Below, piece after piece: positions 14,901 to 58,182 of a stretch of DNA of 58,183 nt. The DNA is from a virus. Its lineage: Duplodnaviria > Caudoviricetes. A model generated the notes under the pieces. That model did no database searches and was not told the DNA's origin. It worked only from the letters and a program-made list of their open reading frames with translations. Location of the stretch: IMG/VR virus record IMGVR_UViG_3300008219_000008, positions 1 through 58,183 of that record. One strand, given 5' to 3'. Positions within the stretch are counted from its first letter, which is position 1. Each line of letters opens with the position of its first letter. The translations under genes and the position numbers were made by a program.

Positions 14901-17900
14901 ATCAAGTGTGTTTCGATTACTTCTAATGGTTTGTCTTCTACCTTAAATGTTCGAGCGTGTTCTTCGCTATCGGTAAGCCATATGTATTTCTGACCCTTTG
15001 CTTCGGCAGCTACTACAGTTTTTCCTCCCCTATAAAATACTTTAGGCTGCCCTTTATCATCTTTAAAAAGAGGTGTTGTTGTGGTTTCCGGGGCAGCAGT
15101 CTTCCTAGGTTTATCTACCTCACTCTTTGCAACTAACTGCTCTGGTGAAACAACGTAAACAGTTTCTCCTAATGCTTCATCAACATGTGTAATCTCCTGT
15201 GTCGAGCCAACATCTTCGATATTCTCAAATATTATTACATTCTCAAATTTTGAGGTATCCTCACCGTTACGCTTAGCTTCCGTATGCCATGAAGAGAGCG
15301 CAGATGTCAGTATATCTAGAGTCATACCAGAATTTTGTCTAGTTAAAGGGTGCTTAGAGTCTCCACCCCGACCCGCACCGCTTTTTAGCATCCAATCTAT
15401 AAATGCTTTAGGCAGTACGTTTAATAAAGTAGGTGTAGAAATCCTTGCTTCAAAACTTGCACCTTTAACGTCTATTATAATAGGATTCCCTTGTGCTATT
15501 GCAGTAACCTGCTCGGGATCATATTTTAGCGGTACACCTTTTTGACCTTGATAGCTTCTAGCATGAGCTTCGGTAGGCGTAAGGAATACTCCTGAGCGTT
15601 GTCCCATAGTTCTGTCTGAATCAGCCCAATCAACAGGTTTCCTTACGTCATGTTCACTGACATACTCCCGTAGATTGAACAGTGCTTCGGCTTCCGCATG
15701 TGTTGCTTTCTCCCTTGCTTTAAATAGCTCACTATTTTTCTTATCCTTACCTAGATCATGTTGGCTTCGACCTTTTTTGAGTTGTTCATTATAGTATTTT
15801 TCCTGCTCTTCTTTTGCTATGTCTGCTAACTCTCTCGCGTCCTCATGATCTTTATTTGCCTTCTGGTAACCCTCATCAGTTTCTGGATCCCACGTATCTA
15901 GATCTCTCTCTCGCACCTGAGATGTATAGAGAATCTTAGTATTACCCTCTTCGTCAGTAATAAGGTTATTGTTTTCATCTAGTTGTACTTCGTTTCCAAG
16001 TACATTTTTTACACTCCCTGGTGTAGCCTCTGCAGTAAATTCTTTTGGAATTAGAGTATCTTCCTTCTTAATAACATCAGCTTCTGTCTCAACCTTTGCT
16101 TTTTCTCCTGTTAATCTATTATTAAACTCAACACCAGACACAGATAAATCATGAGCAGACTGCAACCATGTAAGGATAGGTACTTCAGTAATAACCGCCT
16201 TGGGATTTATATTCTGTTGTATGTAGTTGTTAAAATCAGAAAGTGACATATTACCTTGAGATACACTTTCAGCCTGGGTTCGCAACATCTGCGCTTGTAA
16301 GTCTGTTATGAGTCCTTGCTTCAGAGCATTATCTATATTTTTAAGTAACACTACTGGAGAAGCATTCTTCGGATCTTCTACCCTATTTTTTAGCTTAAGC
16401 TGTTCTTTATATAAATCCGTTTTTACTTCTGCTTCTACTCCTAAGTGTTCTTTAGCTTTATTAGTTGCTTCTTTAAGATTACTACCAGATGTTCTTAATT
16501 TATGGGCTAACTTCCCTCTAGCTTCTTGAGCTTTTTTAATTATCTCGTCTTGTACTTTAATAGCAGCGTCTAGCTTTTCTTCATTACTAGCTTCTTCCCA
16601 AGAAGTACCACCCTCTTCTGTTCTTGCGTCCCACTCCGCCTCTAACCGCTTCTTTAATTGTGGATCAACAAGATCAAAGAAGTTGTTATCTTCTAATAAG
16701 ACCTTATCTTGGTATTCTTGTATTGACAGACCAAGCTCTGAAGCTCTTTCTGCTATACGTGCTTGTATGGCTAAATAGGCTGTGGTATCAGAGAAAGATT
16801 CTTCAGCCTTTTCAACTAGCCCAAATTTCTGGGCTAAGTTCTCGAAGAGTTTTGTGTATAAGGCTGGTAGACTTATTGTCTTTTCCCCACTACCACCTTT
16901 AATATAAACTGTGGGGTCTATATTTTCTACAGCCTTAGTAAGTTCTAGTATTAATTCATGTTCGGATAAGTTGGTATTGGTTAGTACTGTATTCAATAGT
17001 ATTCCTACTGACTCATCTCCAAAGATATTATCATTTTGAAAAGCTAATCCTGTCTTTTCTGTAACTAATCCTCTTAGATTAACTGTAGCTGTTAAGCTTT
17101 CCATAGTAGCATCAATATCATACCTTCCACTGAATGCACCTTGGATCATATTATAAAGTTCTTTACCCGCCATCTTCTGACCAACTCCACCAAGGCTACC
17201 ATATAAAGCCTGTGAGCCTACTGTGTGTGGTATCATCATAATACCAGCCATAACTGGGTTAATGAATGGTGAGAACGCAGCTTCCCATTTTGCTTCAGTT
17301 AAGATATGATCCCAGCTTACTTCTTCTTGTACTCCTGTACTTGTTCTATGATACTGATTCATAATTTCAGCTAAACCACCACTAATAAATCCTTCTACTA
17401 CGTTACCCGTAGTATATGTACCAACCTTACCTAAAGTAATTCCTTTTTGTGCAGCTACTTTCTTGAATATAGTTTTGTTAAGTATGGTGGGTCCAATATT
17501 TTCCGGTAGATAGTAAATTAAAGACTTAGCACCCTGTTGCCACTTAGCTAAATGACCAATAGTACTTAATCTCTTCAGTGCTTGTACTTTATCAGTAGCT
17601 TTTTTAGCAGTCTTACCTATAAATATAGCTCCACCCAAGGCTCCTGCACCCAAAGCTGCTAAAGCAGCCGATAAACCTAAACTTGCTACCATATCTGGAT
17701 CATTTAGAATACCACTAACTACAAAGTTTTTACTTTTTGTCCATATTTGGTCAAGACCACTATCATATCTATTATGCATCTCTACGGAATGGGCAATAGC
17801 TCTATTTGTTACAGCAAGATTTAGTTTATACCAAAATTCTATTGAGTTTCTAGAACCTTCGACTGCTTCCTCTATATATTTTGCCCCACCCAAAGCACTG

Positions 17901-18474: not shown

Positions 18475-21400
18475 TTAAAATTTAGTTCCGGGGCTACGAG
18501 CAAAGTTTGCAAGTTGATTGATTATATGGGCAGCTACTGGATCAGCTCCCTGCTTGACATCATCTCTTATACGTTGTAGGGTTTCCAATTCATTTTGAGT
18601 TAGTTTATCGGCTATCAATTTTGCATCTTCAGCATTACCCCAAAGTAACAGAGGAATTGATAGGGGTGGTACTATTTTTCCTAGTATTGTAGCTACTTTT
18701 CTAGCTATAACTAATCTACCGGGTTTCTGTAGTATCTTAAAAGCTTTAGCCTTTACATTTGACATCTTTTCACCAGCACCCTTGAAGACATCTTTGCCGA
18801 TACTATACTGTTCTCGCTGCCTCATTATATGTTTACGAACCCACTTTACAGGTTTTCCTACTTCTTTAGCAATCTGCTTATCGGTCAGCCTGTACATGTT
18901 ATCCCACACATAGTTCAGCTTGTGTCCTTCAGATTGAATAGACAAAGCCTCTAAAGCCGTAAGAGCTCCAAAGCCACCCACTATACTAAACCCAAGGGCA
19001 TTTTCCCAGAATTCAATGGCTTCTTCAAGGTTTTCTCTGCGGATTTCTGCTTCTTCTACCGACTCTAACTCATCGAGTTCCTCTGTTTCCATAGAATCTT
19101 GATTTAGCTGCTGTAATCCCCCATCTGGCATATACCAGTCAGTAGCCATATCATCAAGCTCTTCAACAGTAGCACCCGCTTCTCTTGCTTCGTCTAGTAC
19201 TTGAATTTTTTTCATCTCATTATCTGTTGTTACTCTTTTACTATCTAATGTAAGTGAGCCAGTCTTATAATGTTTACGAGGAAATGTAAGTATGTATTTG
19301 TCTCCAATTTTCTGAACACTAACCTTCTTATCATCTCTTCTAATTGGAATTAAACCAATTTTTTCTACTGTATAACCCCTCTCTTCAAGCATGTCTGCAT
19401 ACTTATTAAGCTGGTAAGAATATTTCTTTTGTCTTGAATATTTATCACCATCGTATTTTTTGTTTATATTACTTAAATCTCCACTAACTATTTTAACATC
19501 GTAAATTCTAATTTTACCTTTCTCCGTCATAACAATAACGTCTGGCTTTCCGTGAAGACCTTGAGTATCACTAACCAAGTTAATCTCAGATGTAATAACT
19601 CGTCCACCACCCTTAGTTATTTCATCTCTAATTGCATTAGCATCTGTTGTGAATTTAGTAAAGTCAGCTTTCTTATTAAAGAGCTTACCCTCATTGATAA
19701 CTGTATTAGTAGCGTAGTCTTTAGATGTTTTTTCATACTGATCCCATTCTTTTAAATCATCAACGAATAAATCTCTAAGCAATTCGTCTGTAGCATTTCC
19801 AGTAGTGATACCAGCTCGGATCTTAGGATTATTAAGATCTGGACCAGAACCAGTAGGATCTAAAGAACGTGTTACGCCAGTATAATCTCCTGCCCTAGCC
19901 CTAGCTCTATTGGTTTCTCCCATTTCTAGAAGCTCATCTACCTTTTGATCTAGTTCACTAGATGTTAGTGTTGGTGCTGTATCCTCTTCTAACGTCGATT
20001 CACCAAAAGCAATATACTTTTGAAGTTCAGCATTTCCTTCAGCTTGGTCTATATTCCCTTCACTAATAGCTTTCAATAATAACTCATCAACTTCCTCTTG
20101 TGACTGAGATCCCCAGTAACCATCTGTAATATAGTCCCACCCATCAACTATAGTATCCTTGTACATACCTGATATTATCCACCCTGTCTTCCACCAATAT
20201 TCTGGATTTAATGAAAGTGGAATTCCAGCAACAGATTCAGTCCAAGAGAAGTTGTCTTCATCTTGCCATTCTAGAATATCTTGCACAAATTCTATATCTT
20301 CTTCACGTTCCCTTTTTTTAGCCTGATCCAATAAAGATGGACTACCAAAGTCAACACTGAAATCTTTCGTTTTTTGTTCTGGAAGGTTTCCATCTGGTTC
20401 AGTAGACCAAGGCAGAGCTATTGGTGTTTGTCCTTTTAGTTGTAACACTAATCTAGTACCATCTCTATGTACTCCTATAGTGGTACCCATAAATCCTAAT
20501 ATAGGAGCCATCTTTTTATTTTGATCAATAGCTTGAGCACCTGGATCTAGTCGTAGCTCAAAGTAATCAAGTACTAATTCATCGTTTGCTATAGAACTGT
20601 AGTCCTTATTTTGTCCCCAGCTTGATTGTTGCATAATAGATACAATCTTATTTCTATTATTGGGTGTAATAGTTTTCAGCAGTCTATCTTTTTGGGCTGT
20701 TCTTCTAGACTCCATAGCATCTATTTGTTGGGGGTTTAGATGTTTACCTCTATTTGTCTGAGCCATTGGCCTCAGATGCTCTGCTTTTATATCCATCCAT
20801 CCTTCCCCTCCTGCTTCTTTTAAGACATGGTATAGTACAGATAAGTGAGCTTGTTCGTTTCCATAAGTAAACCTATCTTTATTAGAACTTATAACCTCTC
20901 TAAGTTTTTCCCTAACAGGATCAAATGTTTTATTTATAGCATTCCCTACCATAGTGTTCCAATCGGCTTCGCTAATACCTAGGTCGATGGCGTAGTCCAT
21001 CCACCTTGCATAACTCATGTTGGATCTGAGTGTTTGCGTCATAGTATTCATGTCTGCCTCAGCAGCATTGTGTCCGTCTATTATACTTTTACTTTGGCTT
21101 GCATATGATTCGCCAGATAGTCCACCATAGTCACCTGGTTTTGTGGGTATTCCTCCACCACTCTTACCCATCTCAGTCCACACTCTACCAAAATAACCCC
21201 TAGGTCTAGACACACTTCTCGCTAGATTTACACCGTTATTGCCCCAGTGTTTCACGGCATTAGACAGACTATCGCCATCTTCGGGATCGGATAGTCTATA
21301 GGTTTTAACCGTATTCGCGGTCAATCCTATACTCTGAGTACCTTGTTTTGGTAATTCAACGGTACTGTCTGTAAGTTCTGTACCATCTTCCATAATTACT

Positions 21401-23838
21401 CCAGGTTTTACATCTAGTGCTAGGAGATCGAATACAGTCTGTATTCCTGTATCGTAAGTATTTCCACCAGATGCTTTTAACATCATAGCTACTTTATCAA
21501 TAGAGCTTAATCTGTTTTGATTCTCTTTGTCTGAAAATCTTAATAGGGTTTGTAAATGTACTATGTACATAAGCTGTCTCTGATTCTCACTTCCATTACC
21601 CAGACTGAGGAGTTCTGTGCGTTGGGATTCACTGTAGATTCCACTTTCCATAATCTGAGCTTTAAAACCCTTCTCCCTTTCAGAATCTTTGGCAGGAAAC
21701 GATATCCTCGAACGTGTGAAATACCGAACAGTGTTTTCTCCCCATGTTTGAAATTCTGTGTCATCCTTGATCAACTTGCTCTCTACCATCGTATCAATAT
21801 CGTACTTATAAAACGCTCCGCCAGTTGCATCACCTTCTAAGTAATCACTCATACCGCCTATACCCTGTGGTTCGGATCTTGTAGCAGTTAACAAATTCAT
21901 TACACTTTGTACCACAGTTAAATCTACAGTATGTTGCTCCAAGAATTTTTTTAAAGCCATCGGATCATCTGATTTCATAACAGAACTAAGTCTTCCTAAT
22001 GTGCCTTGAGCTGCATTATCAAATGCTTCTACTAATGCATAGCTTAAAAATGATAATACATCTGCTGATTCGATTTTAATTCCAAGCATCTCTGCAATCG
22101 CGTCCTTTTGAATTGGTGTTCTTTCTTTAAAGAGTTCTTTTAGGATAACTACAGATGCGAAAGCACCTTGTGCTAGATCAGCATCTAATTCACTTGACAT
22201 AGGATCAAGATCTAAGTTGCCAAATATTGTAATCTTATCCATTAAATCTTTAGCAGCAGCCTTTAGAAAAGGATTTTCATTATTGAGACCAACTTTATTC
22301 TGTGTGTCCAATATAGCTGATATAAGTGTACTATATCCTACTACGTCATCCACAGCATCAGCTCTGACTCCAATTATTACACCCTCAGCATCCCTCTCCA
22401 TTAAACTATGAAATCTCCCAATAGCTCCTAACTTTTGCTCTGCATAATTATCAGAATCGGGATCCACACTACCAGGAATAGTTTTGTTAAAGCTTTCTGC
22501 AAACTTATCTTCTGCCATAGCTACAGCATCTCTATATCTTTTAGTAGGCAATGGTTCACCGTTTTGAAGTTTTCGATAATCATCAGGATCATGCGCAAGG
22601 AAGTACCACCCAGATTCCCTAAAGGAAATCTTCGCCATAACTGCGGGAATATCCTTCTTGCCATTATCTATCGCTTGGGTAGTTACATCCAAGAGGTTTC
22701 GTTGTACTGCGTCCTCCTTTACTTCTGTAAAGAAATTCTTTTTCTCACCCATCAGTGATTTATACATAGAGAAAATCTTTGACTGTTCTGCTCTAGAGTA
22801 TATTTTATAATCTCTATCATTAATAACATCTTCAACAAACTCATGTAAATCTAAAGTAGACTCAATCTTCTCACTAAAGTGCTCTTGACCTATGTCTACA
22901 ACAAACTTATTCCACCTACCCTCTGGACTGCTTTGTTCATTATAGGCAACTGCTAACTCTTGTGCTGCAGACTGTACTTTATACTTCAATAACATATATG
23001 CTTCTTTAGGATTTGCAAAGTTTACATCAGGGAACACTTCACTTAACCTACTGTATGCTTCTGGTTGTACTTTAGATGCTCCAATTAACTTAGCTATGTT
23101 TTGTAACGCTTGGGATTTCATGGCTATGTTAGCTTCAAAGGAAGAGCTACCTTGACTCATAAGTTCTATATTACGGTGTAGATCATTTATAATATCATCA
23201 CCTGTTAGATCTTTATCATATGAATATTCTTCAAGGGTCACAAAACCTATACCGTGGTATCTCTCAGCTTGTTTCTTTTCCTCTCCTAGTTTTACTAACT
23301 GCTCCTGAGGAACTTTAGGTGCTTTAGTTTCAGAAGGTGGAACTGTAATATGTTCTCCCTCAAAGGATATTACAGTTTCTTTAGTGTTAATATCAGATAC
23401 TTCACCATCTGATACTAAACCCATGTCGTTCATTTCTTTATCATGTTCTTTGGTATACTGCTCTTTAAACATAGCATTATCAGCCCAGTCCCTAAGCTCT
23501 TTTATAGCTGTGTTTTGTGCATCCTTGACCATACTATCGACATCTTCGTATCCATCTGCATTAGCTGCTGATATAATACTACCGTGTACTTCAGGATCTT
23601 TTTGTTCAATGTATGCAAGCATATCAAAGTTATCAGTATCAACAGGCTTCTCAACTTCAGGAGTCTTTGGTGTTTTTTTACTGACTTGTTTAAATATGTA
23701 GTCTAGCTTTTCTTCGTTATTATCCAAACCATATTTCATGTTTAAGAAATTTTCGTTAGACTTTCTATTATCTTCGATCTGTTTAAAGATAAAATCTAGT
23801 CTTACTTTTTCTGGACTCTCTACATTGGTTGGTTCCAT
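18475..23838 (-). CDS. Large internal virion protein (1787 aa) with a C-proximal PD-(D/E)XK nuclease-like domain
   Basis: Position in the ejectosome cluster; motif SE..GLHGKPDVIV..IRIYDVK..YSYQLNKYADML; RBS AAGGAGG. Confidence 0.8.
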   Translation of the reverse strand: MEPTNVESPEKVRLDFIFKQIEDNRKSNENFLNMKYGLDNNEEKLDYIFKQVSKKTPKTPEVEKPVDTDNFDMLAYIEQKDPEVHGSIISAANADGYEDVDSMVKDAQNTAIKELRDWADNAMFKEQYTKEHDKEMNDMGLVSDGEVSDINTKETVISFEGEHITVPPSETKAPKVPQEQLVKLGEEKKQAERYHGIGFVTLEEYSYDKDLTGDDIINDLHRNIELMSQGSSSFEANIAMKSQALQNIAKLIGASKVQPEAYSRLSEVFPDVNFANPKEAYMLLKYKVQSAAQELAVAYNEQSSPEGRWNKFVVDIGQEHFSEKIESTLDLHEFVEDVINDRDYKIYSRAEQSKIFSMYKSLMGEKKNFFTEVKEDAVQRNLLDVTTQAIDNGKKDIPAVMAKISFRESGWYFLAHDPDDYRKLQNGEPLPTKRYRDAVAMAEDKFAESFNKTIPGSVDPDSDNYAEQKLGAIGRFHSLMERDAEGVIIGVRADAVDDVVGYSTLISAILDTQNKVGLNNENPFLKAAAKDLMDKITIFGNLDLDPMSSELDADLAQGAFASVVILKELFKERTPIQKDAIAEMLGIKIESADVLSFLSYALVEAFDNAAQGTLGRLSSVMKSDDPMALKKFLEQHTVDLTVVQSVMNLLTATRSEPQGIGGMSDYLEGDATGGAFYKYDIDTMVESKLIKDDTEFQTWGENTVRYFTRSRISFPAKDSEREKGFKAQIMESGIYSESQRTELLSLGNGSENQRQLMYIVHLQTLLRFSDKENQNRLSSIDKVAMMLKASGGNTYDTGIQTVFDLLALDVKPGVIMEDGTELTDSTVELPKQGTQSIGLTANTVKTYRLSDPEDGDSLSNAVKHWGNNGVNLARSVSRPRGYFGRVWTEMGKSGGGIPTKPGDYGGLSGESYASQSKSIIDGHNAAEADMNTMTQTLRSNMSYARWMDYAIDLGISEADWNTMVGNAINKTFDPVREKLREVISSNKDRFTYGNEQAHLSVLYHVLKEAGGEGWMDIKAEHLRPMAQTNRGKHLNPQQIDAMESRRTAQKDRLLKTITPNNRNKIVSIMQQSSWGQNKDYSSIANDELVLDYFELRLDPGAQAIDQNKKMAPILGFMGTTIGVHRDGTRLVLQLKGQTPIALPWSTEPDGNLPEQKTKDFSVDFGSPSLLDQAKKREREEDIEFVQDILEWQDEDNFSWTESVAGIPLSLNPEYWWKTGWIISGMYKDTIVDGWDYITDGYWGSQSQEEVDELLLKAISEGNIDQAEGNAELQKYIAFGESTLEEDTAPTLTSSELDQKVDELLEMGETNRARARAGDYTGVTRSLDPTGSGPDLNNPKIRAGITTGNATDELLRDLFVDDLKEWDQYEKTSKDYATNTVINEGKLFNKKADFTKFTTDANAIRDEITKGGGRVITSEINLVSDTQGLHGKPDVIVMTEKGKIRIYDVKIVSGDLSNINKKYDGDKYSRQKKYSYQLNKYADMLEERGYTVEKIGLIPIRRDDKKVSVQKIGDKYILTFPRKHYKTGSLTLDSKRVTTDNEMKKIQVLDEAREAGATVEELDDMATDWYMPDGGLQQLNQDSMETEELDELESVEEAEIRRENLEEAIEFWENALGFSIVGGFGALTALEALSIQSEGHKLNYVWDNMYRLTDKQIAKEVGKPVKWVRKHIMRQREQYSIGKDVFKGAGEKMSNVKAKAFKILQKPGRLVIARKVATILGKIVPPLSIPLLLWGNAEDAKLIADKLTQNELETLQRIRDDVKQGADPVAAHIINQLANFARSPGTKF

Positions 23839-37815: not shown

Positions 37816-38052
37816 TCAAAGGACTTTAAGTAGGAGGCTAACGCCCCCAGAAATTACAATAGCAATACCTGCAGCCCATGTAGCTGCCTTGGTTTGTAGT
37901 ACCACTATATTACGTTCTATTTTTGCTAATCTTTTATCCATCCGATCCAATCTAGAATTAGTATTTTCTAATTCGTGTATAACTAATCTTTTATATTGAT
38001 CCCATCCATTACTATGTCCTTGATGAGTCTCCCACGGATCTTCTGGTGCCAT
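37816..38052 (-). CDS. Small coiled-coil protein with a C-terminal TM helix (holin or XhlA-like candidate)
   Basis: Heptad RLDRMDKRLAKIERNI followed by hydrophobic WAAGIAIVISGGVSLLL. Confidence 0.6.
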   Translation of the reverse strand: MAPEDPWETHQGHSNGWDQYKRLVIHELENTNSRLDRMDKRLAKIERNIVVLQTKAATWAAGIAIVISGGVSLLLKVL

Positions 38053-49516: not shown

Positions 49517-50185
49517 TTAGCCCTTCTTTCTTTTATCTACATTACTTACAGCCTTGGTGATATCAGTATCTATCTCCAGAAACTCAGTAATATTTTTTAT
49601 TATTTCTTTAGGATTCTCTAGCATGTCTTCAAAGTAAACAACATGATGATTAATATTCTCACGAGTTAACCAACTGTCTGTCATATCATTAGCTAACAAT
49701 ACCTTAAGGTGCATGGCATATACATCCACGCCCTTGTATTGGTCAGCGAAAGAGTTCTCTAAATTATTATCGTCGGATATTTCCATATCTATCTGTGCCA
49801 ATTTAAACATACTCTCTGCTTGTGTGAAATCATCTTTACGTTTACAATATATAACCTTATCAACCTTCGTGTTATCAAGTTCAAGGGGTAGAATACCCAT
49901 CATCTTAACGGCACCATCTATGTCACCATCATATTTACCCACAGTAATATCTATTATGGTATACACGTCAAGTTCCCAATAACCTTTTGGATTTAAAGAC
50001 CTAGCTATTTTATCTTGTTCTTCTGTTACATATATGTCAACAGATTCACCTCTATGATAACCACCCCATAGACAGTGCTCCTTAACCTTGGACTCGGGGT
50101 TCCCAATTAAGGAAACCCCAAGCAAGTTTAAGGTTTGCATCATAAGGCTAGAGCCACATCTACCTGCTCCAGTAACTATAATCAT
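49517..50185 (-). CDS. Sulfotransferase-family P-loop protein
   Basis: IIVTGAGRCGSSLMMQ (5'-PSB-like loop); NPKGYWE; VIYCKR; VYFEDMLENP. Confidence 0.75.
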   Translation of the reverse strand: MIIVTGAGRCGSSLMMQTLNLLGVSLIGNPESKVKEHCLWGGYHRGESVDIYVTEEQDKIARSLNPKGYWELDVYTIIDITVGKYDGDIDGAVKMMGILPLELDNTKVDKVIYCKRKDDFTQAESMFKLAQIDMEISDDNNLENSFADQYKGVDVYAMHLKVLLANDMTDSWLTRENINHHVVYFEDMLENPKEIIKNITEFLEIDTDITKAVSNVDKRKKG

Positions 50186-51903: not shown

Positions 51904-52028
51904 TATTTACCCCACGGCATCTTAGTTTTCATCCATACCCACATTGGGTTACCGATAAGAGCACCTGCTACAAAGACTACTGCTGTGTAGCACAGTGTTC
52001 CAACCACTGTATCAAATATTTCTACCAT
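51903..52028 (-). CDS. Small single-TM membrane protein (41 aa; missing from the ORF track)
   Basis: MVEIFDTVVGTLCYTAVVFVAGALIGNPMWVWMKTKMPWGK; RBS AAGGAG; TAATG overlap with the primase start. Confidence 0.75.
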   Translation of the reverse strand: MVEIFDTVVGTLCYTAVVFVAGALIGNPMWVWMKTKMPWGK

Positions 52029-52401
52029 TACTTTTCTCCTTTAAAATTTTCATAACTATTTTACCTGCCCATGCTAATGAGATTGCACCTGTTGCAATCA
52101 CCACGGGTAGGAAGAACCAACTAGCATACATAGCTAATGCATAGTTTAAAACAACGAATAAAATTCCGCCTATCAGCGGGTACCAGCCCATTCGTCCACC
52201 AGTAAGCACAAGCAAAGCCATTCCACTTAGTGTACAGATCCCACCAAGCCATCCGAGCATAGGGCTACACGTAACAACAGGTGAATCGATAGTTTCCATA
52301 GCCTTATCTATAATACCAGGTGGTGTGAATACTTTCTGCCACATTGAGCAGCCAGTTAGTGTTATAGTTAGTAGGGTTAAATACATCACATGTCTTATCA
52401 T
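52012..52401 (-). CDS. Membrane lipoprotein (lipobox plus about 3 TM helices)
   Basis: Signal peptide ending LTGC, followed by three hydrophobic segments. Confidence 0.7.
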   Translation of the reverse strand: MIRHVMYLTLLTITLTGCSMWQKVFTPPGIIDKAMETIDSPVVTCSPMLGWLGGICTLSGMALLVLTGGRMGWYPLIGGILFVVLNYALAMYASWFFLPVVIATGAISLAWAGKIVMKILKEKSNGRNI

Positions 52402-54416: not shown

Positions 54417-56861
54417 CTATGCAAAAAAGTACTCTGATTTAAGAACCGTTTCCAGTTCTAATTCCCCGCGTGGTGGAGGATCAGGTAGTTTTACTCCTAA
54501 TTGTTTCTCAACTTCGCCCCTAAATTTTTCTAACAAATTTTCAGAATGTATATCGAGAAACTCCTCCCGTAAACAGTTACGCATTAGGTCTACAAAATTG
54601 GCATGACATCCATATGAATCATGGAGCATACTAAAGTCTGTTATACCATAGAACGCGACTCTAATTATAGTTAGAAACAAATGTGCTGCATCAATGCTAT
54701 GAATAAAGTTGGGGCTAATAGCTTGTAATGCAGCCCTGATATTAACATCATCTGTCCTAACATAAAACGTCAGCTCTTTAGCATTAAACAAAGTAGCAAG
54801 AGACCTACGTTTCTGTTGTTTATTATAATAGTGAACAACCTTAAAGCCACTAGGGGTAGTCCACTCTACATGTTTATTGAGATCATTGGCAATACTAACA
54901 ACTTCTTTAAGGTATTGTTTACCTGTGTTGGGTCCACCTAAGGATGTATCTAAACTAGCTTTGATTGCTCTAGCCAATTCAACTATAGCACCGCCTAGCT
55001 TATCTTTAGGTACCCAACTAAGGTGACCCTCTTCTTTAATATATCTTTGGATACCATAGAAAGTAATACCATAAGGCTCACACATGGTAGATCTTTTAGT
55101 TACTGTTCTATCAATAGAATTATTCCAGTGATCCATGAACTGTTCTAGCCAGCCGCTAGGATCTTGTGCCTTTAAACAGTAGTCAGTAGTTTTATCTGCC
55201 ACAAACTGATACAAATCTTTAGGTTCTTTACTAGGTAGCACACCTGTTAGCTTAGCTATAGGCGTATCACCTACTATGGCAGACCAGTGTTGGTTGCCAT
55301 TACACTTGCCATCTATCTGGACTGGGACAAATGTAAGATTATCAGTTCTAGTAATATCAAAAATACTAGCCAGTCTCTGAAAGGACTTATTCTTTTTGAC
55401 AGAGCTATCAATCCATTCTCTATTTTCATAAGGATCTTTTGCAATTTCATTTATCATCTCCCAATTATCATCAACCCACTTGACCCTGGATTCAAAGCCC
55501 AGTTTGTCTTGATCAAATAAGTTAGCTAAGTGTACCTTCTGCCACCACCTACCTCTAGGGGTAAGCTCTACACCAGTAGCAAAGCATATCAGACCACGAT
55601 CAATATCAGATGATTGTGGGCTAAGTAACTCACATATTGGGTAAGCCCTGCCTCGGAAGTCCATAGTCCATGAGTGGTAAAAGTAATCAAGGGGTATCAG
55701 CTCCTTAGCTAGCTTAAGTCGTATAAGCATGCGCCCTCTTCCTTGCTCATTCTTATACCACTGACCCCACTTTTCTTCCCTTGCTTGGCACCATTTGGCT
55801 TGGTCTTCTTTAGACCCATCATTTGGGTAGGGTGCATTATACATGAACTCTTCAAAGGAGTACATTGGTAGGTTCGCTAGCCCTGTGTTGTTGGTAAAGA
55901 GGTTTTCCATTACCTCTAGTACAGAAGTATTAACAGTCCACTCAGTACCAGCCAGCATATTGATACCGTCTACTACCTCTTGAGAAGGCTGAGAAAACTT
56001 CTGTTCTTTAGCATAATCACCAAAATAATTAGACCTATATTTTTGTACCAAAGGTTTCCTAAGTTCTGTGTGTATGTACCCGCCGGAATGTTTTAGTGTG
56101 TGTAGTTCTGGTCTAGATATCATAGGTCTGTAGACCAGTGTACTTGCTTGTAAGAACTCATGCCTTTGGTGTAACTCTCTGAGAACATCAGGATGAAACT
56201 CAACACTGAGATAGCTTTTGAAAGTACTACCTCGTTTTATTCTATGTTTTGTTAGGATTATTATATTACTGGTAGCAGCTATGCGTAACATGTGGTGTCC
56301 ATAGTCATGCTTCTGTTTAACAGAAAGCTTATGAACCTTACCCATCTTCTTAGCAAAGGCTTTACATCTCTTAGTAGTCCAGTTCTTTATAAACTTTGAT
56401 TGCTTTAGCCAGTTATCTCTATTAGATTTCTTAGCTCTTTGAAATGCTATAATATCACTAGAATCCTGAGCTATCTGTATAGCTATAGTTTGTGCTAGAG
56501 GTGGAACGATCTTATCATTCTGCCAATCATAACCCCAATAAGAACTAGAGAACCAAGTACGTATGACAGCCCTGATAGTTATATCAGCCATCTTCTGTGC
56601 ACCTAGCTCTAGAAGAGGAGGTATCCATCCAGGCGTACCGTTTGAAGAGCATATATTATCTATCCACTCTTGATATGTATCTCTTAACTCCTTAATACTG
56701 GAATCCATAAGCTCTTGCTCAGGTATACCCTCATCAGGTGCTCTGTTATACTCATCCCAATACTTACTCCGACCATACTCTAGCATCTCTTGTTCATAAG
56801 ATACCTGTAAGTCTATTCGTTTGCTTCTGCCTTCGTCAGTTAAATCATTCCATATCGTCAT
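54417..56861 (-). CDS. T7-type single-subunit DNA-directed RNA polymerase
   Basis: MDFRGRAYP; motif A QIDGKCNG; KDLY; motif B RTVTKRSTMCEPYG; PNFIHSIDA; motif C LHDSYG. Confidence 0.98.
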   Translation of the reverse strand: MTIWNDLTDEGRSKRIDLQVSYEQEMLEYGRSKYWDEYNRAPDEGIPEQELMDSSIKELRDTYQEWIDNICSSNGTPGWIPPLLELGAQKMADITIRAVIRTWFSSSYWGYDWQNDKIVPPLAQTIAIQIAQDSSDIIAFQRAKKSNRDNWLKQSKFIKNWTTKRCKAFAKKMGKVHKLSVKQKHDYGHHMLRIAATSNIIILTKHRIKRGSTFKSYLSVEFHPDVLRELHQRHEFLQASTLVYRPMISRPELHTLKHSGGYIHTELRKPLVQKYRSNYFGDYAKEQKFSQPSQEVVDGINMLAGTEWTVNTSVLEVMENLFTNNTGLANLPMYSFEEFMYNAPYPNDGSKEDQAKWCQAREEKWGQWYKNEQGRGRMLIRLKLAKELIPLDYFYHSWTMDFRGRAYPICELLSPQSSDIDRGLICFATGVELTPRGRWWQKVHLANLFDQDKLGFESRVKWVDDNWEMINEIAKDPYENREWIDSSVKKNKSFQRLASIFDITRTDNLTFVPVQIDGKCNGNQHWSAIVGDTPIAKLTGVLPSKEPKDLYQFVADKTTDYCLKAQDPSGWLEQFMDHWNNSIDRTVTKRSTMCEPYGITFYGIQRYIKEEGHLSWVPKDKLGGAIVELARAIKASLDTSLGGPNTGKQYLKEVVSIANDLNKHVEWTTPSGFKVVHYYNKQQKRRSLATLFNAKELTFYVRTDDVNIRAALQAISPNFIHSIDAAHLFLTIIRVAFYGITDFSMLHDSYGCHANFVDLMRNCLREEFLDIHSENLLEKFRGEVEKQLGVKLPDPPPRGELELETVLKSEYFFA

Positions 56862-57165
56862 CTACACCTTCCCAGTACTGCTGTGTACGTTTAACATGTT
56901 CTTCCTTGGTTATCTTACCAAAGGCAAGATCCCAGTTGATATCATATATCTCATCAGGTATATCTCTGCTCCTAGTACTATCCCCTTTACCAGCAGAGGA
57001 TTCATATACTTCAGGCTTCCATATCCTGTTGCCACCTCTAGCCCTATGTGCGGCATCCTTTTCATGCTTAGCCTTAAGTTTTCTCCAGTTTTTGTGGGCG
57101 TTAAAGGTGCCACCAAAATTCTGATCATTAGTTTCTATAGATACACTCTTTTTTTTCTTTGCCAT
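56845..57165 (-). CDS. Hypothetical protein (106 aa), probably on a leaderless mRNA
   Basis: MAKKKK... ATG lies 6 nt after the TATAAT box; AGKGDSTR..Y..NWDLAFGK motif; overlaps the RNAP start. Confidence 0.75.
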   Translation of the reverse strand: MAKKKKSVSIETNDQNFGGTFNAHKNWRKLKAKHEKDAAHRARGGNRIWKPEVYESSAGKGDSTRSRDIPDEIYDINWDLAFGKITKEEHVKRTQQYWEGVDDDME

Positions 57166-57200
57166 ACGTATATTATACCTCATGTTAACATGTTTGTCAA
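57165..57200 (-). promoter_or_regulatory. Consensus sigma70 promoter for the RNAP operon, with a palindromic spacer
   Basis: TTGACA (57200-57195), 17 bp, TATAAT (57177-57172); A/T-rich upstream; spacer contains the palindrome CATGTTAACATG (57181-57192). Confidence 0.9.
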
Positions 57201-57228
57201 GTAAAAAACAGATCTTTTTATAATATAT

Positions 57229-57717
57229 ATTGTTACCTCTTCGATTGCGGTCGATTCACAGTGTCGAAGTTAACCAATACAGGACCCCGTTAAGATAGAT
57301 GCCGAAGCAAATGCTGACCGACTTGGGCTCAGAGGATAGGTAACACTATATTAAATTGTGCGTTAGAGATGCCAAGATTATCTCATTAAAGCCCGTCTAG
57401 CCGTGGCTCCGCACATTAAATTGTCGGGGAGTAGTAGCGTGAATATGTTTCCTTGTACACCTCATCACTTCGGTAGCTGCTTCATATGCCTACTACTCCC
57501 CGTAGATTGTGACACCCCTTTGTGGGTTAATAAGATTCTCGGACTTTGACTAGATAATCCTACCGTCTTAATGGGTGTCGTAGATTGTAGATGGGTTACG
57601 CCCATCACTCGGGTGTCTCGTCTGACTAAAAGTCAACGCCACCACACGTATGCTAGTATATCGGCACAGTAAATGCTGTTGTTCTTATGAGTAACCATAC
57701 GACACTGTGTCATCCGC
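57229..57717 (-). ncRNA. Array of stem-closed structured RNA modules punctuated by ACAAT(T/C)TA
   Basis: Closing stems 57231-57238/57338-57345, 57357-57362/57410-57415, 57425-57437/57490-57502, 57511-57517/57573-57579 and 57590-57595/57601-57606. Linkers ATTAAATTGT x2 and CGTAGATTGT x2. No minus-strand ORF of 60 aa or more. Confidence 0.65.
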
Positions 57718-58182
57718 TTATACTAAGGTCAGTGCCTTTCGCATCACACGAGTAGAGTCTCGGCTCGCATCACCAATAAGTTTATTAGCAATGGTAGCTT
57801 CGATTGTTCTACGCTTCTTGTGTTGCAGCCAGTTGGTTACTGCGTTAGCAGCAAGCCATGCACTGTCTCCTCTAAATTCTCTTACCTCTTTATCAAAGGT
57901 TTCAGTAAAGCCTTGCATAGTAGTCATGGCTTTCTTTCTAGAGTTATGTTCCTCTTGTGTGTAAGATGAACGTGCCGTAGGTACAGTACCTTCGAACATT
58001 TCATAACATTCCATCCAGAAAGTTTGAATCTCTTGTGCATTCCATCGCTTTCTGCCCAACTGTTGAACAGCACCACGGAATGCAGTCTTGTGATTCTTCC
58101 ACTCTTCTAGTGCATCCTTAAGACTAAGGATCTTAGCATCGATATCACCTGTATGCTTCAGTTTAATCATACGTTGTGAGCC
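57718..58182 (-). CDS. DUF932/DUF945-like early protein, C-terminal part (5'-truncated)
   Basis: Frame is open to the right edge; IKLKHTG and SAWLAANAVTNWLQH motifs. Confidence 0.75.
   Translation of the reverse strand, partial: GSQRMIKLKHTGDIDAKILSLKDALEEWKNHKTAFRGAVQQLGRKRWNAQEIQTFWMECYEMFEGTVPTARSSYTQEEHNSRKKAMTTMQGFTETFDKEVREFRGDSAWLAANAVTNWLQHKKRRTIEATIANKLIGDASRDSTRVMRKALTLV

What the first reader, a model, noticed from the sequence alone, without database searches (positions are those of the whole stretch)
57229..57717. Punctuated array of dissimilar RNA modules, each closed by a stem and followed by ACAAU
Seen: about 490 nt with no coding gene in an otherwise packed genome. Four consecutive modules of about 60-115 nt are each closed by their own terminal helix: TGTTACCT/AGGTAACA, TGTGCG/CGCACA, a 13-bp CGGGGAGTAGTAG/CTACTACTCCCCG, and GACACCC/GGGTGTC. 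A fifth multi-hairpin block ends in GATGGG/CCCATC. On the minus strand ACAAT sits at the 3' foot of each one (plus-strand ATTGT at 57229, 57355, 57420, 57506, 57584), and the linkers are exact 10-mer pairs, ATTAAATTGT x2 and CGTAGATTGT x2. A C(UUCG)G loop (57300-57309) supports a minus-strand RNA. The module interiors are unrelated to each other and lack tRNA T-loops and CCA. Inference: a polycistronic small-RNA cassette cut at a shared signal into separate RNAs, for example decoys or sponges against host defence, tRNA-like or Y-RNA-like mimics, or antisense guides. I do not recognise it as a named family.
Basis: partly seen in the sequence, partly recalled or inferred. Interest (0 to 1): 0.8.

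Follow-up and report, generated by a model that had tools for sequence, protein, structure and literature searches.

The report
Punctuated array of phage structured RNAs
An uncultured marine T7-like phage carries, just ahead of its RNA polymerase operon, a row of unrelated folded RNA modules separated by one shared short spacer, and related phages hold other sets of such modules joined by the same spacer; this arrangement matches no RNA family in Rfam release 15.

Summary
Window 57229-57717 (minus strand) holds a multi-hairpin block and four stem-closed modules. Each is followed by ACAAU, usually ACAAU-CUAA.

The layout is conserved. Thirty non-redundant marine viral contigs, in at least two gene contexts, carry arrays with the same punctuation but different module sets. 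M1-M4 recur elsewhere, up to 100% identical, and identity breaks at the spacers. Close relatives differ by whole cassettes.

The RNA is read from the gene strand. Covariation supports this: in 19 long-stem modules the outer stem cells are 171 Watson-Crick, 19 G-U and 0 A-C.

ARAGORN and Rfam find nothing in the window. In two sister arrays one cassette matches the tRNA-like domain of tmRNA. Array-less relatives carry four tRNA genes in the same early region.

In a close relative the array is the tail of the first host-promoter operon.

Best reading: an immediate-early polycistronic cluster of exchangeable structured small RNAs, separated at single-stranded spacers by a host RNase. Cutting is inferred, not shown. 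Some cassettes may mimic host RNAs. Function is unknown.

Rated a new variant of a known kind, of high interest.

The parts
57718..58182 (-). 3' part of a DUF932-family gene (context). The window ends inside this gene. Its stop codon TAA is at 57720-57718.
   Evidence: Pfam PF06067, E = 1.6e-6. Relative L314 shows the full 327-aa gene.
57589..57717 (-). First multi-hairpin block (B5). It starts right after the stop codon and ends in hairpin H.
   Evidence: Partly homologous blocks occur in L146, L265, L274 and L161.
57665..57709 (-). Hairpin CACAGU/ACUGUG presenting an invariant 32-nt motif (57702-57671). The motif holds a small UAUGG-UUAC-UCAUA hairpin and an A-rich tail.
   Evidence: The same 32 nt sit on closing stems of different sequence in L146, L147, L155 and L161. 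An exact 26-nt search found 6 viral contigs.
57590..57606 (-). Hairpin H: GAUGGG-CGUAA-CCCAUC, preceded by CCGAGU. It is the most widely shared element and the first punctuation mark.
   Evidence: 29 distinct real contexts. Stem variants GATG/CATC 15, GGTA/TACC 5, GATA/TATC 3, AATG/CATT 1; G-U intermediates 5; mismatches 0.
57580..57588 (-). Spacer 1: ACAAU (57588-84) plus CUAC.
57511..57579 (-). Module M4 (69 nt), closed by GACACCC/GGGUGUC.
   Evidence: 69 of 69 identical in L173, with flanks diverging beyond the spacers. Variants in L164 (closing pair A-U changed to G-C, different central hairpin) and L209.
57503..57510 (-). Spacer 2: ACAAU (57510-06) plus CUA.
57425..57502 (-). Module M3 (78 nt), with a 13-bp closing helix. 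It belongs to a 'long-stem' scaffold family whose interiors differ.
   Evidence: Fold z = -4.6. 93.5% identical copy in L209 with an A-U to G-C change in an inner helix. The same sequence is the only cassette in L313 and L314. Family statistics.
57416..57424 (-). Spacer 3: ACAAU (57424-20) plus UUAA.
   Evidence: (D5).
57357..57415 (-). Module M2 (59 nt), closed by UGUGCG/CGCACA.
   Evidence: 55 of 55 identical in L142 and L139. L274 and L132 carry a G-C to A-U change in the closing helix. Also in L209. Fold z = -3.2.
57346..57359 (-). Spacer 4: ACAAU (57359-55, overlapping the M2 helix by 3 nt) plus UUAAUAUAG. M2 and M1 travel together in W, L142, L274 and L146.
57231..57345 (-). Module M1 (115 nt): a four-helix fold closed by UGUUACCU/AGGUAACA, with a UUCG-capped helix that is replaced by longer hairpins in relatives.
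   Evidence: 9 further copies. 99.4% of 310 cells are paired, against 27-49% when the partners are slid. 3 pairs show compensatory change. Inserts of varying length occur at one helix. The 3' 69-71 nt are 98.6% identical in contigs whose flanking gene is about 78% identical.
57229..57233 (-). Fifth ACAAU, at the 3' foot of M1 (overlaps the helix by 3 nt).
57203..57219 (-). A/U-rich hairpin followed by a U run, resembling a weak terminator at the array's end.
   Evidence: Read by eye (a similar element in L314). Not called by the scan.
57172..57200 (-). Consensus sigma-70-type promoter TTGACA-17-TATAAT for the small-protein and RNA polymerase operon.
   Evidence: 12 of 12 hexamer matches. The same arrangement occurs in L001, L136 and L314.
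54417..57165 (-). Downstream context: a 106-aa basic protein gene (57165-56845) and an 814-aa T7-type RNA polymerase gene (56861-54417).

Best explanation
Window 57229-57717 is a phage gene cluster for structured small RNAs, read on the minus strand, the same strand as all genes.

Structure. Each cassette has a 3-4-nt leader (CUAA, CUAC or UUAA), an RNA whose two ends pair in a terminal helix, and the tail ACAAU. Adjacent helices are therefore always separated by the same unpaired 8-9-nt spacer. The window holds a leader block that ends in a conserved hairpin (H), followed by M4, M3 and the M2+M1 pair.

Shown here:
- the modules are conserved, covarying RNA families;
- the spacer is conserved while the module content is shuffled between phages;
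- whole cassettes are gained and lost exactly at the spacers;
- in a close relative the array is the tail of the first host-promoter operon.

Inferred:
- The array is transcribed by host RNA polymerase at the very start of infection as one precursor.
- A host endoribonuclease that acts on single-stranded A/U-rich spacers beside helices cuts the spacers. This could be RNase E-type cutting, as in 9S-to-5S rRNA and multi-tRNA precursors, or tRNA-type end processing.
- Cutting releases stable stem-closed RNAs and separates the upstream message from the polymerase message.
- The same spacer serves as a short homology seam for cassette exchange.
- The released RNAs most likely act in trans on host factors, some as mimics of host RNAs. 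What the four window modules bind is unknown.
For: RNA and strand:
- H hairpin: 29 real contexts, 4 fully Watson-Crick stem versions, 5 G-U intermediates, 0 mismatches.
- Long-stem family: 19 modules, outer 10 pairs, 171 Watson-Crick + 19 G-U + 0 A-C + 0 other.
- M1: 99.4% of cells paired against 27-49% when slid.
- Compensatory changes in M1, M2, M3 and M4.

Shared punctuation with shuffled content:
- 30 non-redundant arrays out of 55 confirmed hits.
- Helices end at ACAAT in 31 of 37 and begin 4 nt after it in 25 of 37.
- The complement of the spacer is depleted in arrays: GATTGT 3 against about 12 expected.

Cassette behaviour:
- M2 is 55/55 identical in W, L142 and L139. M4 is 69/69 identical in L173. 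Flanks differ in both cases.
- L002 and L003 differ by one 158-nt cassette bounded by spacers.
- L314 has only M3 where the window has M4-M3-M2-M1.

Early expression context:
- In L314 the order is P1 (11/12 match), orf81, DUF932, array, P2 (12/12 match), RNA polymerase.
- In L002-type relatives the last cassette abuts the ribosome-binding site, so the polymerase message must run through the array.
- Contigs from 4 of 4 RNA libraries laid carry the DUF932 3' end joined to the first block, 57654-57800. This is a weak hint only, because the libraries may contain DNA.

tRNA-world link:
- A tmRNA tRNA-like-domain cassette is present in L142 (51.8 bits, gathering score 47) and L220 (45.4 bits).
- L008 and L012 each carry four tRNA genes in the early region.
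- In the long-stem family the tail after the helix is ACAAT in 13 of 20 and ACCAAT in 7 of 20, that is A + CCA.

No phage-encoded RNA-processing enzyme was seen among the 20 window ORFs scanned with Pfam.
Against: - No RNA end has been observed. The RNA data are assembled contigs and derive from relatives.
- The spacer is not a textbook RNase E site in its commonest form (recalled consensus), and no enzyme can be assigned.
- Not every interval between ACAAT marks has a simple terminal helix: 37 of 92 intervals have a stem of 5 bp or more, although many of the other intervals are coding sequence.
- Two of the five ACAAU in the window overlap the closing helix, and M2 abuts M1 without a spacer in L274. 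The spacer is therefore not obligatory at every junction.
- M1 shows little covariation (3 of 31 pairs) because it is almost invariant.
- No module of the window itself resembles any known RNA. The 'mimic' idea rests on sister arrays.
- The host is unknown.
Confidence: 0.55

Rival explanations
1. The array is one large modular RNA that is not cut. The repeated unpaired ACAAU-CUAA segments, displayed between helices, are multiple binding sites for one host or phage RNA-binding protein. The RNA would then be a sponge in the manner of CsrB/RsmZ, and the modules would serve mainly as spacers or stabilisers.
For: The spacer is the only element common to all cassettes. It is kept unpaired: its complement is depleted. 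It recurs 3-6 times per array. The first block holds an invariant A-rich single-stranded motif displayed in a loop.
Against: Module interiors are themselves highly conserved families with conserved loops. M1 is 98.6% identical where the flanking gene is about 78% identical. Mere spacers would not be so conserved. The number of spacers varies from 2 to 6 between close relatives. No candidate binding protein is known.
Confidence: 0.15
2. The modules are cis-acting elements of the early messenger RNA. They would be intercistronic processing, stabilising or insulating structures between the DUF932 operon and the polymerase operon, analogous to the RNase III sites between T7 early genes, with no trans function.
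For: The position is the same as in T7, between early genes and just before the polymerase operon. In L002-type relatives the last cassette is directly followed by the ribosome-binding site. The most distant relatives (L008, L012) have a single hairpin at this place.
Against: One hairpin would be enough for this role, yet arrays reach about 1.1 kb (L220) with more than 15 different module families. Identical modules also occur in an unrelated gene context, a second lineage with PD-(D/E)XK and AAA_24 genes. In the window a consensus promoter lies between the array and the polymerase operon, so the array is not that operon's leader.
Confidence: 0.15
3. The array is an RNA-based counter to a particular RNA-guided or RNA-antitoxin system. 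It would be a pseudo-antitoxin array (type III toxin-antitoxin mimicry) or an RNA anti-CRISPR, in which the hairpin plus spacer imitates a host repeat.
For: It is an early, non-coding, hairpin-plus-handle arrangement. Hairpin H with its 3' ACAAU-CUAA resembles a repeat hairpin with a handle in outline. Phages are known to use both kinds of mimicry (recalled literature).
Against: There is no repeated unit: TRF finds 0, and only 9-12-nt direct repeats are present. The stems differ between modules, so a stem-specific nuclease could not recognise them all. No toxin or cas gene lies nearby. The pattern was not found in any true form in 185,579 species genomes: 32 hits, 0 with the hairpin context.
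Confidence: 0.05
4. The region is a DNA-level element. The ACAAT marks could be iterons of an origin or a packaging or recombination site, or a row of promoters for the phage's own T7-type polymerase.
For: A repeated short motif lies in a non-coding stretch near one end of a T7-like genome. Several assemblies break in or near it.
Against: Pairing is strand-asymmetric, with 19 G-U and 0 A-C, and compensatory changes point to a folded single strand. ACAATYTA is not dispersed before genes: 11 in the window against 7.97 expected, and 4 of the 11 lie in the array. The sequence upstream of each ACAAT varies, which does not suit a 17-23-bp phage promoter (promoter length recalled).
Confidence: 0.04

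Closest known systems
Phage T4 tRNA gene cluster with its stable RNAs (species 1 and 2, also called RNA C and D). Recalled knowledge; also the comparison made in earlier finding e1-5898182.
   Same: A phage-encoded row of different stem-closed stable RNAs, made as polycistronic precursors with very short spacers. Some are non-tRNA RNAs of unknown function. Sister arrays here contain a tRNA-like (tmRNA-type) cassette, and array-less relatives carry real tRNAs in the same early region.
   Different: None of the window's modules is a tRNA. The spacer is one conserved sequence. Cassette content is shuffled between phages and between lineages. The cluster lies at the very start of the early region of a T7-like phage.
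RNase E maturation of 9S RNA to 5S rRNA and of multi-tRNA precursors in E. coli (recalled).
   Same: A possible working analogy: an RNA closed by its terminal helix is freed by cuts in single-stranded A/U-rich flanks a few nucleotides from the helix.
   Different: Cutting is not shown here. The commonest spacer form is not a canonical RNase E site. The host and its RNases are unknown.
RNase III processing sites of the phage T7 early region (R0.3 to R1.3) (recalled).
   Same: The same genomic place in a T7-like genome, with folded RNA between early genes.
   Different: T7 sites are single long irregular hairpins of one type. Here there are many unrelated multi-helix modules of 55-190 nt with 5-13-bp closing stems, plus a conserved single-stranded spacer.
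tmRNA tRNA-like domain (Rfam RF00023).
   Same: One cassette in L142 and one in L220 have the acceptor stem with a G-U third pair, a D-loop analogue and a T-arm, and match the first and last parts of the model.
   Different: These cassettes lack the whole mRNA-like part (82 nt against a 374-position model) and the encoded CCA. No such cassette exists in the window.
Type III antitoxin arrays (ToxI) and phage pseudo-ToxI; RNA anti-CRISPRs (recalled).
   Same: A non-coding array cut, or proposed to be cut, at a short A-rich single-stranded signal into folded units. Phage RNA mimicry as counter-defence.
   Different: Those arrays repeat one unit. Here the units are unrelated and no cognate nuclease gene is adjacent.
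Cassette systems that shuffle at repeated boundary signals: PeSL cassettes of T4-type phages, and integron attC cassettes
   Same: Whole units are gained, lost and moved between genomes exactly at a repeated boundary sequence.
   Different: The cargo is non-coding RNA, not genes. The boundary is 8-9 nt. No integrase or attC core sites are present.

Membership tests
tRNA | Cloverleaf with anticodon arm, T-arm and T-loop | tested here: not met
   ARAGORN finds 0 genes in the window and 0 in 20 related loci that carry arrays. A search for a 5-bp stem with a T-loop in 32 arrays found only the two tmRNA-like cassettes, plus 3 chance hits outside modules.
tRNA | Acceptor-type helix followed by an unpaired N-CCA 3' end | tested here: inconclusive
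   Closing helices are 6-13 bp and are followed by A-CAAU in the window. In the long-stem family the tail is ACCAAT in 7 of 20 modules and ACAAT in 13 of 20.
tmRNA (RF00023) | Score at or above the Rfam gathering score (47 bits); tRNA-like domain plus mRNA-like tag region | tested here: not met
   Window 57000-57900: no tmRNA match even at E up to 10. Sister arrays: L142 51.8 bits, L220 45.4 bits, tRNA-like domain only and no tag region. ARAGORN reports no tmRNA there.
Any Rfam 15 family | Match at gathering score | tested here: not met
   Whole window: 0 matches. Region at E up to 10: only a mir-761 noise hit of 17 bits against a gathering score of 82. 15 related loci at gathering score: 0. 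27 loci with permissive filters: only the two tmRNA hits.
T7-type RNase III processing site | A single irregular hairpin of about two helical turns between genes, cut by RNase III | tested here: not met
   The modules are multi-helix folds with 6-13-bp closing stems. Cleavage itself cannot be tested with these tools.
Type III toxin-antitoxin antitoxin array (ToxI-like) | Tandem copies of one roughly 34-36-nt unit beside a ToxN/AbiQ-type endoribonuclease gene | tested here: not met
   TRF finds 0 arrays. Direct repeats are 12 nt at most. The neighbours are a DUF932 gene and a basic 106-aa protein with no Pfam or PHROG match.
CRISPR array / RNA anti-CRISPR repeat unit | Repeats of 28-37 nt with spacers, or a solitary copy of a host repeat | tested here: not met
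   Only the 8-10-nt spacer repeats. The H-hairpin pattern gave no true match in 185,579 species genomes: 32 hits, 0 with the hairpin context.
Promoters of a T7-type phage RNA polymerase | One conserved motif of about 17-23 bp dispersed in front of genes | tested here: not met
   ACAATYTA occurs 11 times in the window against 7.97 expected, and 4 of these are in the array. The sequence upstream of each mark varies. No long dispersed repeat contains it.
Polycistronic stable-RNA cluster processed at spacers (the kind it is filed under) | Several independently folded, conserved RNAs in one transcription unit, same strand, with short spacers | tested here: met
   Conserved covarying modules on the gene strand. 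No promoter-like or terminator-like site of note inside the array. Operon layout in L314.
Polycistronic stable-RNA cluster processed at spacers (the kind it is filed under) | Endonucleolytic separation into discrete RNAs | not testable with these tools
   Only assembled RNA contigs were available, and they cannot show ends.

The most novel reading that the evidence does not exclude
An RNA-level cassette library. Marine phages would exchange ready-made structured-RNA cassettes at a universal ACAAU-CUAA seam and express them as the first product of infection, before any phage protein exists. The cassettes would be mimics or aptamers that neutralise host RNA-directed defences or take over translation quality control. 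Examples are tRNA acceptor-end look-alikes (a helix plus A-C(C)A tail, and the tmRNA tRNA-like domain) that could soak up enzymes or toxins acting on tRNA ends. This would be a protein-free, modular counter-defence island.
Probability: 0.2. Interest if true: 0.9.

Novelty: new variant of a known kind. Interest (0 to 1): 0.8.

Why it matters
Phage non-coding RNAs other than tRNAs are poorly known, and counter-defence is studied almost wholly through proteins.

This locus is a conserved and widely shared way of packaging many unrelated folded RNAs. It sits ahead of the RNA polymerase operon; in a close relative (L314) the same array ends the first host-promoter operon, so it may be among the first products of infection. 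The RNAs swap between phages like gene cassettes.

If the RNAs are released and act on host factors, the locus gives more than a dozen new RNA families with a built-in hint of function: one sister cassette is a tmRNA look-alike. It would also give a new processing signal and an RNA counterpart of anti-defence islands. The spacer rule (helix, ACAAU-CUAA, helix) is also a simple search key for finding further RNA genes in viral metagenomes.

Tried and rejected
1. Two-spacer pattern ACAATCTA-N40-70-ACAATCTA in viral contigs. The 10 multi-hit loci inspected were all coding tandem repeats. No new arrays came from it.
2. Metagenome scan with the H pattern. Of 160 pattern matches in all loci held, 105 were rejected. 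Most were a eukaryote-like repeat (CGGG..GAAG context), and one was a CRISPR array (L225). A few rejected hits were real hairpins at contig ends.
3. blastn of the array against phage records, E. coli genomes and plasmids: no match.
4. RNA runs. The contigs cover only 57654-57800. There is no cover of M1-M4, which shows nothing either way. One contig runs into adapter sequence 13 nt past the match, which was not interpretable.
5. 'The contig is circular and the DUF932 gene spans its ends' (my note). Rejected: the other end's ORF does not continue the protein.
6. 'A tRNA-Lys anticodon-loop mimic in the first block.' Rejected: the stem covaries but the loop is not conserved in L002.
7. A 10-nt perfect complement between the first block and the M1 loop (I7), and a 29-nt 72% complement between M2 and M4 (I1). 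Both are at chance level and are not conserved in other M1-bearing arrays.
8. Small ORFs. ATG follows the spacer in many but not all cassettes, there is no ribosome-binding site, and the indels are not multiples of three.
9. A shared phage-encoded processing enzyme. Only two small proteins are shared between the window and the second lineage: a 78-aa protein with a hydrophobic C-terminus and a 129-aa protein without Pfam or PHROG matches.
10. The genome search 'relatives' is not available for a virus record, so the host was not identified.
11. Earlier findings of this scan: nothing on this genome or sequence.
12. Literature searches and passages of PMC9004378, PMC10690425 and 10.64898/2026.10.21.760802: no description of such arrays.
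Full report
**1. What is in the window**

All long ORFs lie on the minus strand. Read in that direction, the end of the window runs as follows:
- the 3' part of a DUF932-family gene, 58182-57718 (Pfam PF06067, E = 1.6e-6);
- 489 nt with no long ORF on that strand;
- a sigma-70-type promoter with 12 of 12 hexamer matches, 57200-57172;
- a 106-aa basic protein gene;
- an 814-aa T7-type RNA polymerase gene.

The rest of the genome is T7-like. It encodes a primase-helicase, a family A DNA polymerase, a 5'-3' exonuclease, a ribonucleotide reductase, a portal protein and a scaffold protein. The polymerase is at most about 28% identical to that of any cultured phage in the collection.

The window is a truncated contig. 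It stops inside the DUF932 gene, and my early idea that it is circular was wrong. Related contigs are 65-68 kb long.

**2.

Five ACAAT in 360 nt of one strand compares with 0.45 expected from the window's own frequency (P = 1.1e-4). At M2 and M1 the ACAAT shares 3 nt with the closing helix.

ARAGORN finds no tRNA. Rfam finds nothing at gathering score and only a noise hit at E up to 10. There is no tandem repeat.

**3. The same punctuation with other modules in related phages**

Thirteen IMG/VR loci encode a related polymerase. Those at 64-91% identity that reach far enough upstream carry an array at the same place. The helix-ACAAT-CTAA-helix rule is the same, but the modules partly differ.

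The most widely shared element is hairpin H with its spacer.
- Of 160 pattern matches in all loci held, 55 passed a check for the hairpin context and at least two spacers, and 105 did not. Most rejects were an unrelated eukaryote-like repeat.
- None of the 32 matches in species genomes is real.
- The 55 collapse to 30 non-redundant arrays.

The arrays sit in at least two gene contexts. One is the T7-like context. In the other the array follows PD-(D/E)XK nuclease and AAA_24 genes and precedes varied accessory genes. L220 is a third, more distant polymerase phage with a non-coding stretch of about 1.1 kb.

**4. Every module of the window is a family**

- M1 recurs in 9 other arrays. Its 3' 69-71 nt are 98.6% identical in contigs whose DUF932 gene is only about 78% identical.
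- M2 is 55/55 identical in L142 and L139, and carries a G-C to A-U change in its closing helix in L274 and L132.
- M4 is 69/69 identical in L173. L164 has a compensated closing pair and a different central hairpin.
- M3 recurs in L209 at 93.5% identity, with an A-U to G-C change in an inner helix. In L313 and L314 all but its first base is the same.
- The 32-nt motif of the first block is invariant, but sits on closing stems of four different sequences.

**5. It folds as RNA on the gene strand**

- Hairpin H: among 29 distinct real contexts the four variable pairs take four fully Watson-Crick versions. Five contexts carry a G-U pair and none a mismatch.
- Long-stem family (to which M3 belongs): in 19 distinct modules the outer ten pairs are 171 Watson-Crick, 19 G-U, 0 A-C and 0 other. 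Several positions carry three or four pair types. Before this count I dropped one chance hit in coding sequence, one module of another family and three nested duplicates.
- M1 is almost invariant. It shows 31 pairs, 99.4% of cells paired against 27-49% when partners are slid, three pairs with compensatory change, and hairpin inserts of varying length at one helix.

G-U pairs without any A-C pairs exclude the opposite strand and argue against a double-stranded DNA signal.

**6. The spacer**

Over 92 distinct ACAAT-to-ACAAT intervals, many of them coding sequence, terminal helices are far longer than with shuffled partners: mean 5.14 against 2.48, with a maximum of 2.82 in 200 shuffles. Among the 37 intervals with a stem of 5 bp or more, the helix ends exactly at ACAAT in 31 and begins 4 nt after the previous ACAAT in 25.

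The consensus is ACAAU-C-U-A-A. In the long-stem family 7 of 20 tails read ACCAAU instead.

The complement of the spacer is depleted in the arrays, with GATTGT seen 3 times against about 12 expected. This fits a segment kept unpaired.

The motif is not dispersed through the genome, so it is not the phage polymerase's promoter.

**7. Cassette behaviour**

Identity between arrays begins and ends at the spacers.
- L002 and L003 are otherwise near-identical and differ by one 158-nt M1 cassette.
- L314 is a close relative of the window. It has H, a doubled ACAAT, M3 and ACAAT. The window has M4, M3, M2 and M1 in that place.
- M2 and M1 tend to travel together, and in L274 they abut without a spacer.
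- A crude clustering gives more than 15 module families in shuffled orders.

**8. When it is made**

In L314 the order is: a near-consensus host-type promoter (11/12 match), an 81-codon ORF, DUF932, the array, an A/U hairpin with a U run, a 12/12 promoter, and the polymerase. In L002-type relatives no promoter intervenes and the last cassette abuts the ribosome-binding site.

The array is therefore part of the first host-transcribed unit. This is the position where T7 keeps its host-takeover and anti-restriction genes (recalled).

Contigs from four RNA libraries carry the DUF932 3' end joined to the first block. They come from relatives, they may derive from DNA in the libraries, and they cannot show ends.

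**9. A link to the tRNA world**

With permissive filters, Rfam finds an 82-nt match to tmRNA in L142 (51.8 bits against a gathering score of 47) and one in L220 (45.4 bits). Each match covers the first and last model positions only. It comprises an acceptor stem with a G-U third pair, a D-loop analogue and a T-arm, with no tag region. In L142 it is the last cassette, directly after M1.

The array-less relatives L008 and L012 each have four tRNA genes (Lys-UUU, Met-CAU, Arg-UCU, Leu-UAA) in the same early region.

No other cassette has a T-arm. The window's own modules match nothing known.

**10. Reading**

Shown:
- an early-region cluster of conserved, independently folded RNAs;
- a universal unpaired spacer;
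- exchange of cassettes at that spacer.

Inferred:
- Transcription as one precursor.
- Cutting in the spacers by a host enzyme. No RNA-processing enzyme was seen among the 20 window ORFs scanned, and the two lineages share none. RNase E-type cutting beside helices, or tRNA-type end maturation, are the precedents (recalled). From recalled enzymology, a helix followed by A-C-A-A-U could be trimmed and rebuilt to a tRNA-like A-C-C-A end. This is untested.
- Action of the released RNAs in trans on host factors. The fast gain and loss, the sharing across lineages, the immediate-early position and the tmRNA-like cassette suggest host-directed mimicry. The targets of M1-M4 are unknown.

**11. Rivals**

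The rivals are an uncut modular sponge RNA, purely cis-acting mRNA processing or stabilising elements, mimicry of one specific repeat-based system, and a DNA-level signal. Each is set out with its evidence in the Rival explanations section. None explains the conserved module interiors together with the shared spacer as well as the best reading does.

**12. Known or new**

No Rfam family matches. There is no match in phage, plasmid or E. coli records.

Six full-text searches gave no description. I also read passages of three papers:
- PMC9004378 describes a phage two-piece tmRNA.
- PMC10690425 reports over ten thousand unnamed candidate RNAs from viral contigs. Its main text does not contain the words tandem or array. 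Its supplementary tables, which might list single modules, could not be opened.
- 10.64898/2026.10.21.760802 deals with repeat arrays.

The kind, a polycistronic stable-RNA cluster in a phage, is known from the T4 tRNA region. The universal spacer, the non-tRNA cargo and the cassette exchange are new.

Noticed in passing
L142:2221-2302 (-) and L220:1229-1310 (-): Mini tmRNA-like cassettes of 82 nt: acceptor stem with a G-U third pair, T-arm, no tag-coding part and no encoded CCA. Rfam scores are 51.8 and 45.4 bits. ARAGORN does not call them.
   Followed up: partly
L008:1308-2295 and L012:1012-2127: Relatives with about 66% identical polymerase lack the ACAAU array. They carry four tRNA genes (Lys-UUU, Met-CAU, Arg-UCU, Leu-UAA) among their early genes upstream of the DUF932 gene.
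   Followed up: partly
window 2912-18460 (-) and 18475-23838 (-): Two giant ORFs of 5182 and 1787 codons in a T7-like genome. Neither was analysed.
   Followed up: no
window 58183 (right end) and L313 position 1: The window and an independent contig (L313) both end at the same base inside the DUF932 gene, while L314 reads through. Several other assemblies also break in or next to the array. This may reflect strain-level hypervariability or a genome end.
   Followed up: no
L132, L133, L139, L147, L149, L156: the 300-450 nt before hairpin H: The second lineage has further nested modules without ACAAU. One is a conserved outer helix (TTTAGTAGGTACC ... GGTATCTACTAA) that encloses different inserts, and it occurs twice in L147. 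Another is a helix capped by a GUGA tetraloop.
   Followed up: no
window 57671-57685 (-): The single-stranded tail of the invariant 32-nt motif reads as four consecutive A-purine-N triplets. From recall, this is the kind of sequence bound by the distal face of Hfq. Untested.
   Followed up: no
window 49517-50185 (-): A sulfotransferase-like gene lies between the primase-helicase and DNA polymerase genes (Pfam PF09037, PF13469 and PF00685, E about 1e-6).
   Followed up: no
window 37816-38052 (-) and 52012-52401 (-): These are the only two proteins shared with the second array-bearing lineage (35-51% identity). They are adjacent there (L139:1664-2301) but 14 kb apart in the window. One is a 78-aa protein with a hydrophobic C-terminus, and the other is a 129-aa protein with no family.
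   Followed up: partly
L225:24-845: A chance hit of the search pattern turned out to be a CRISPR-like array with a repeat of about 36 nt. It is unrelated to the finding.
   Followed up: no
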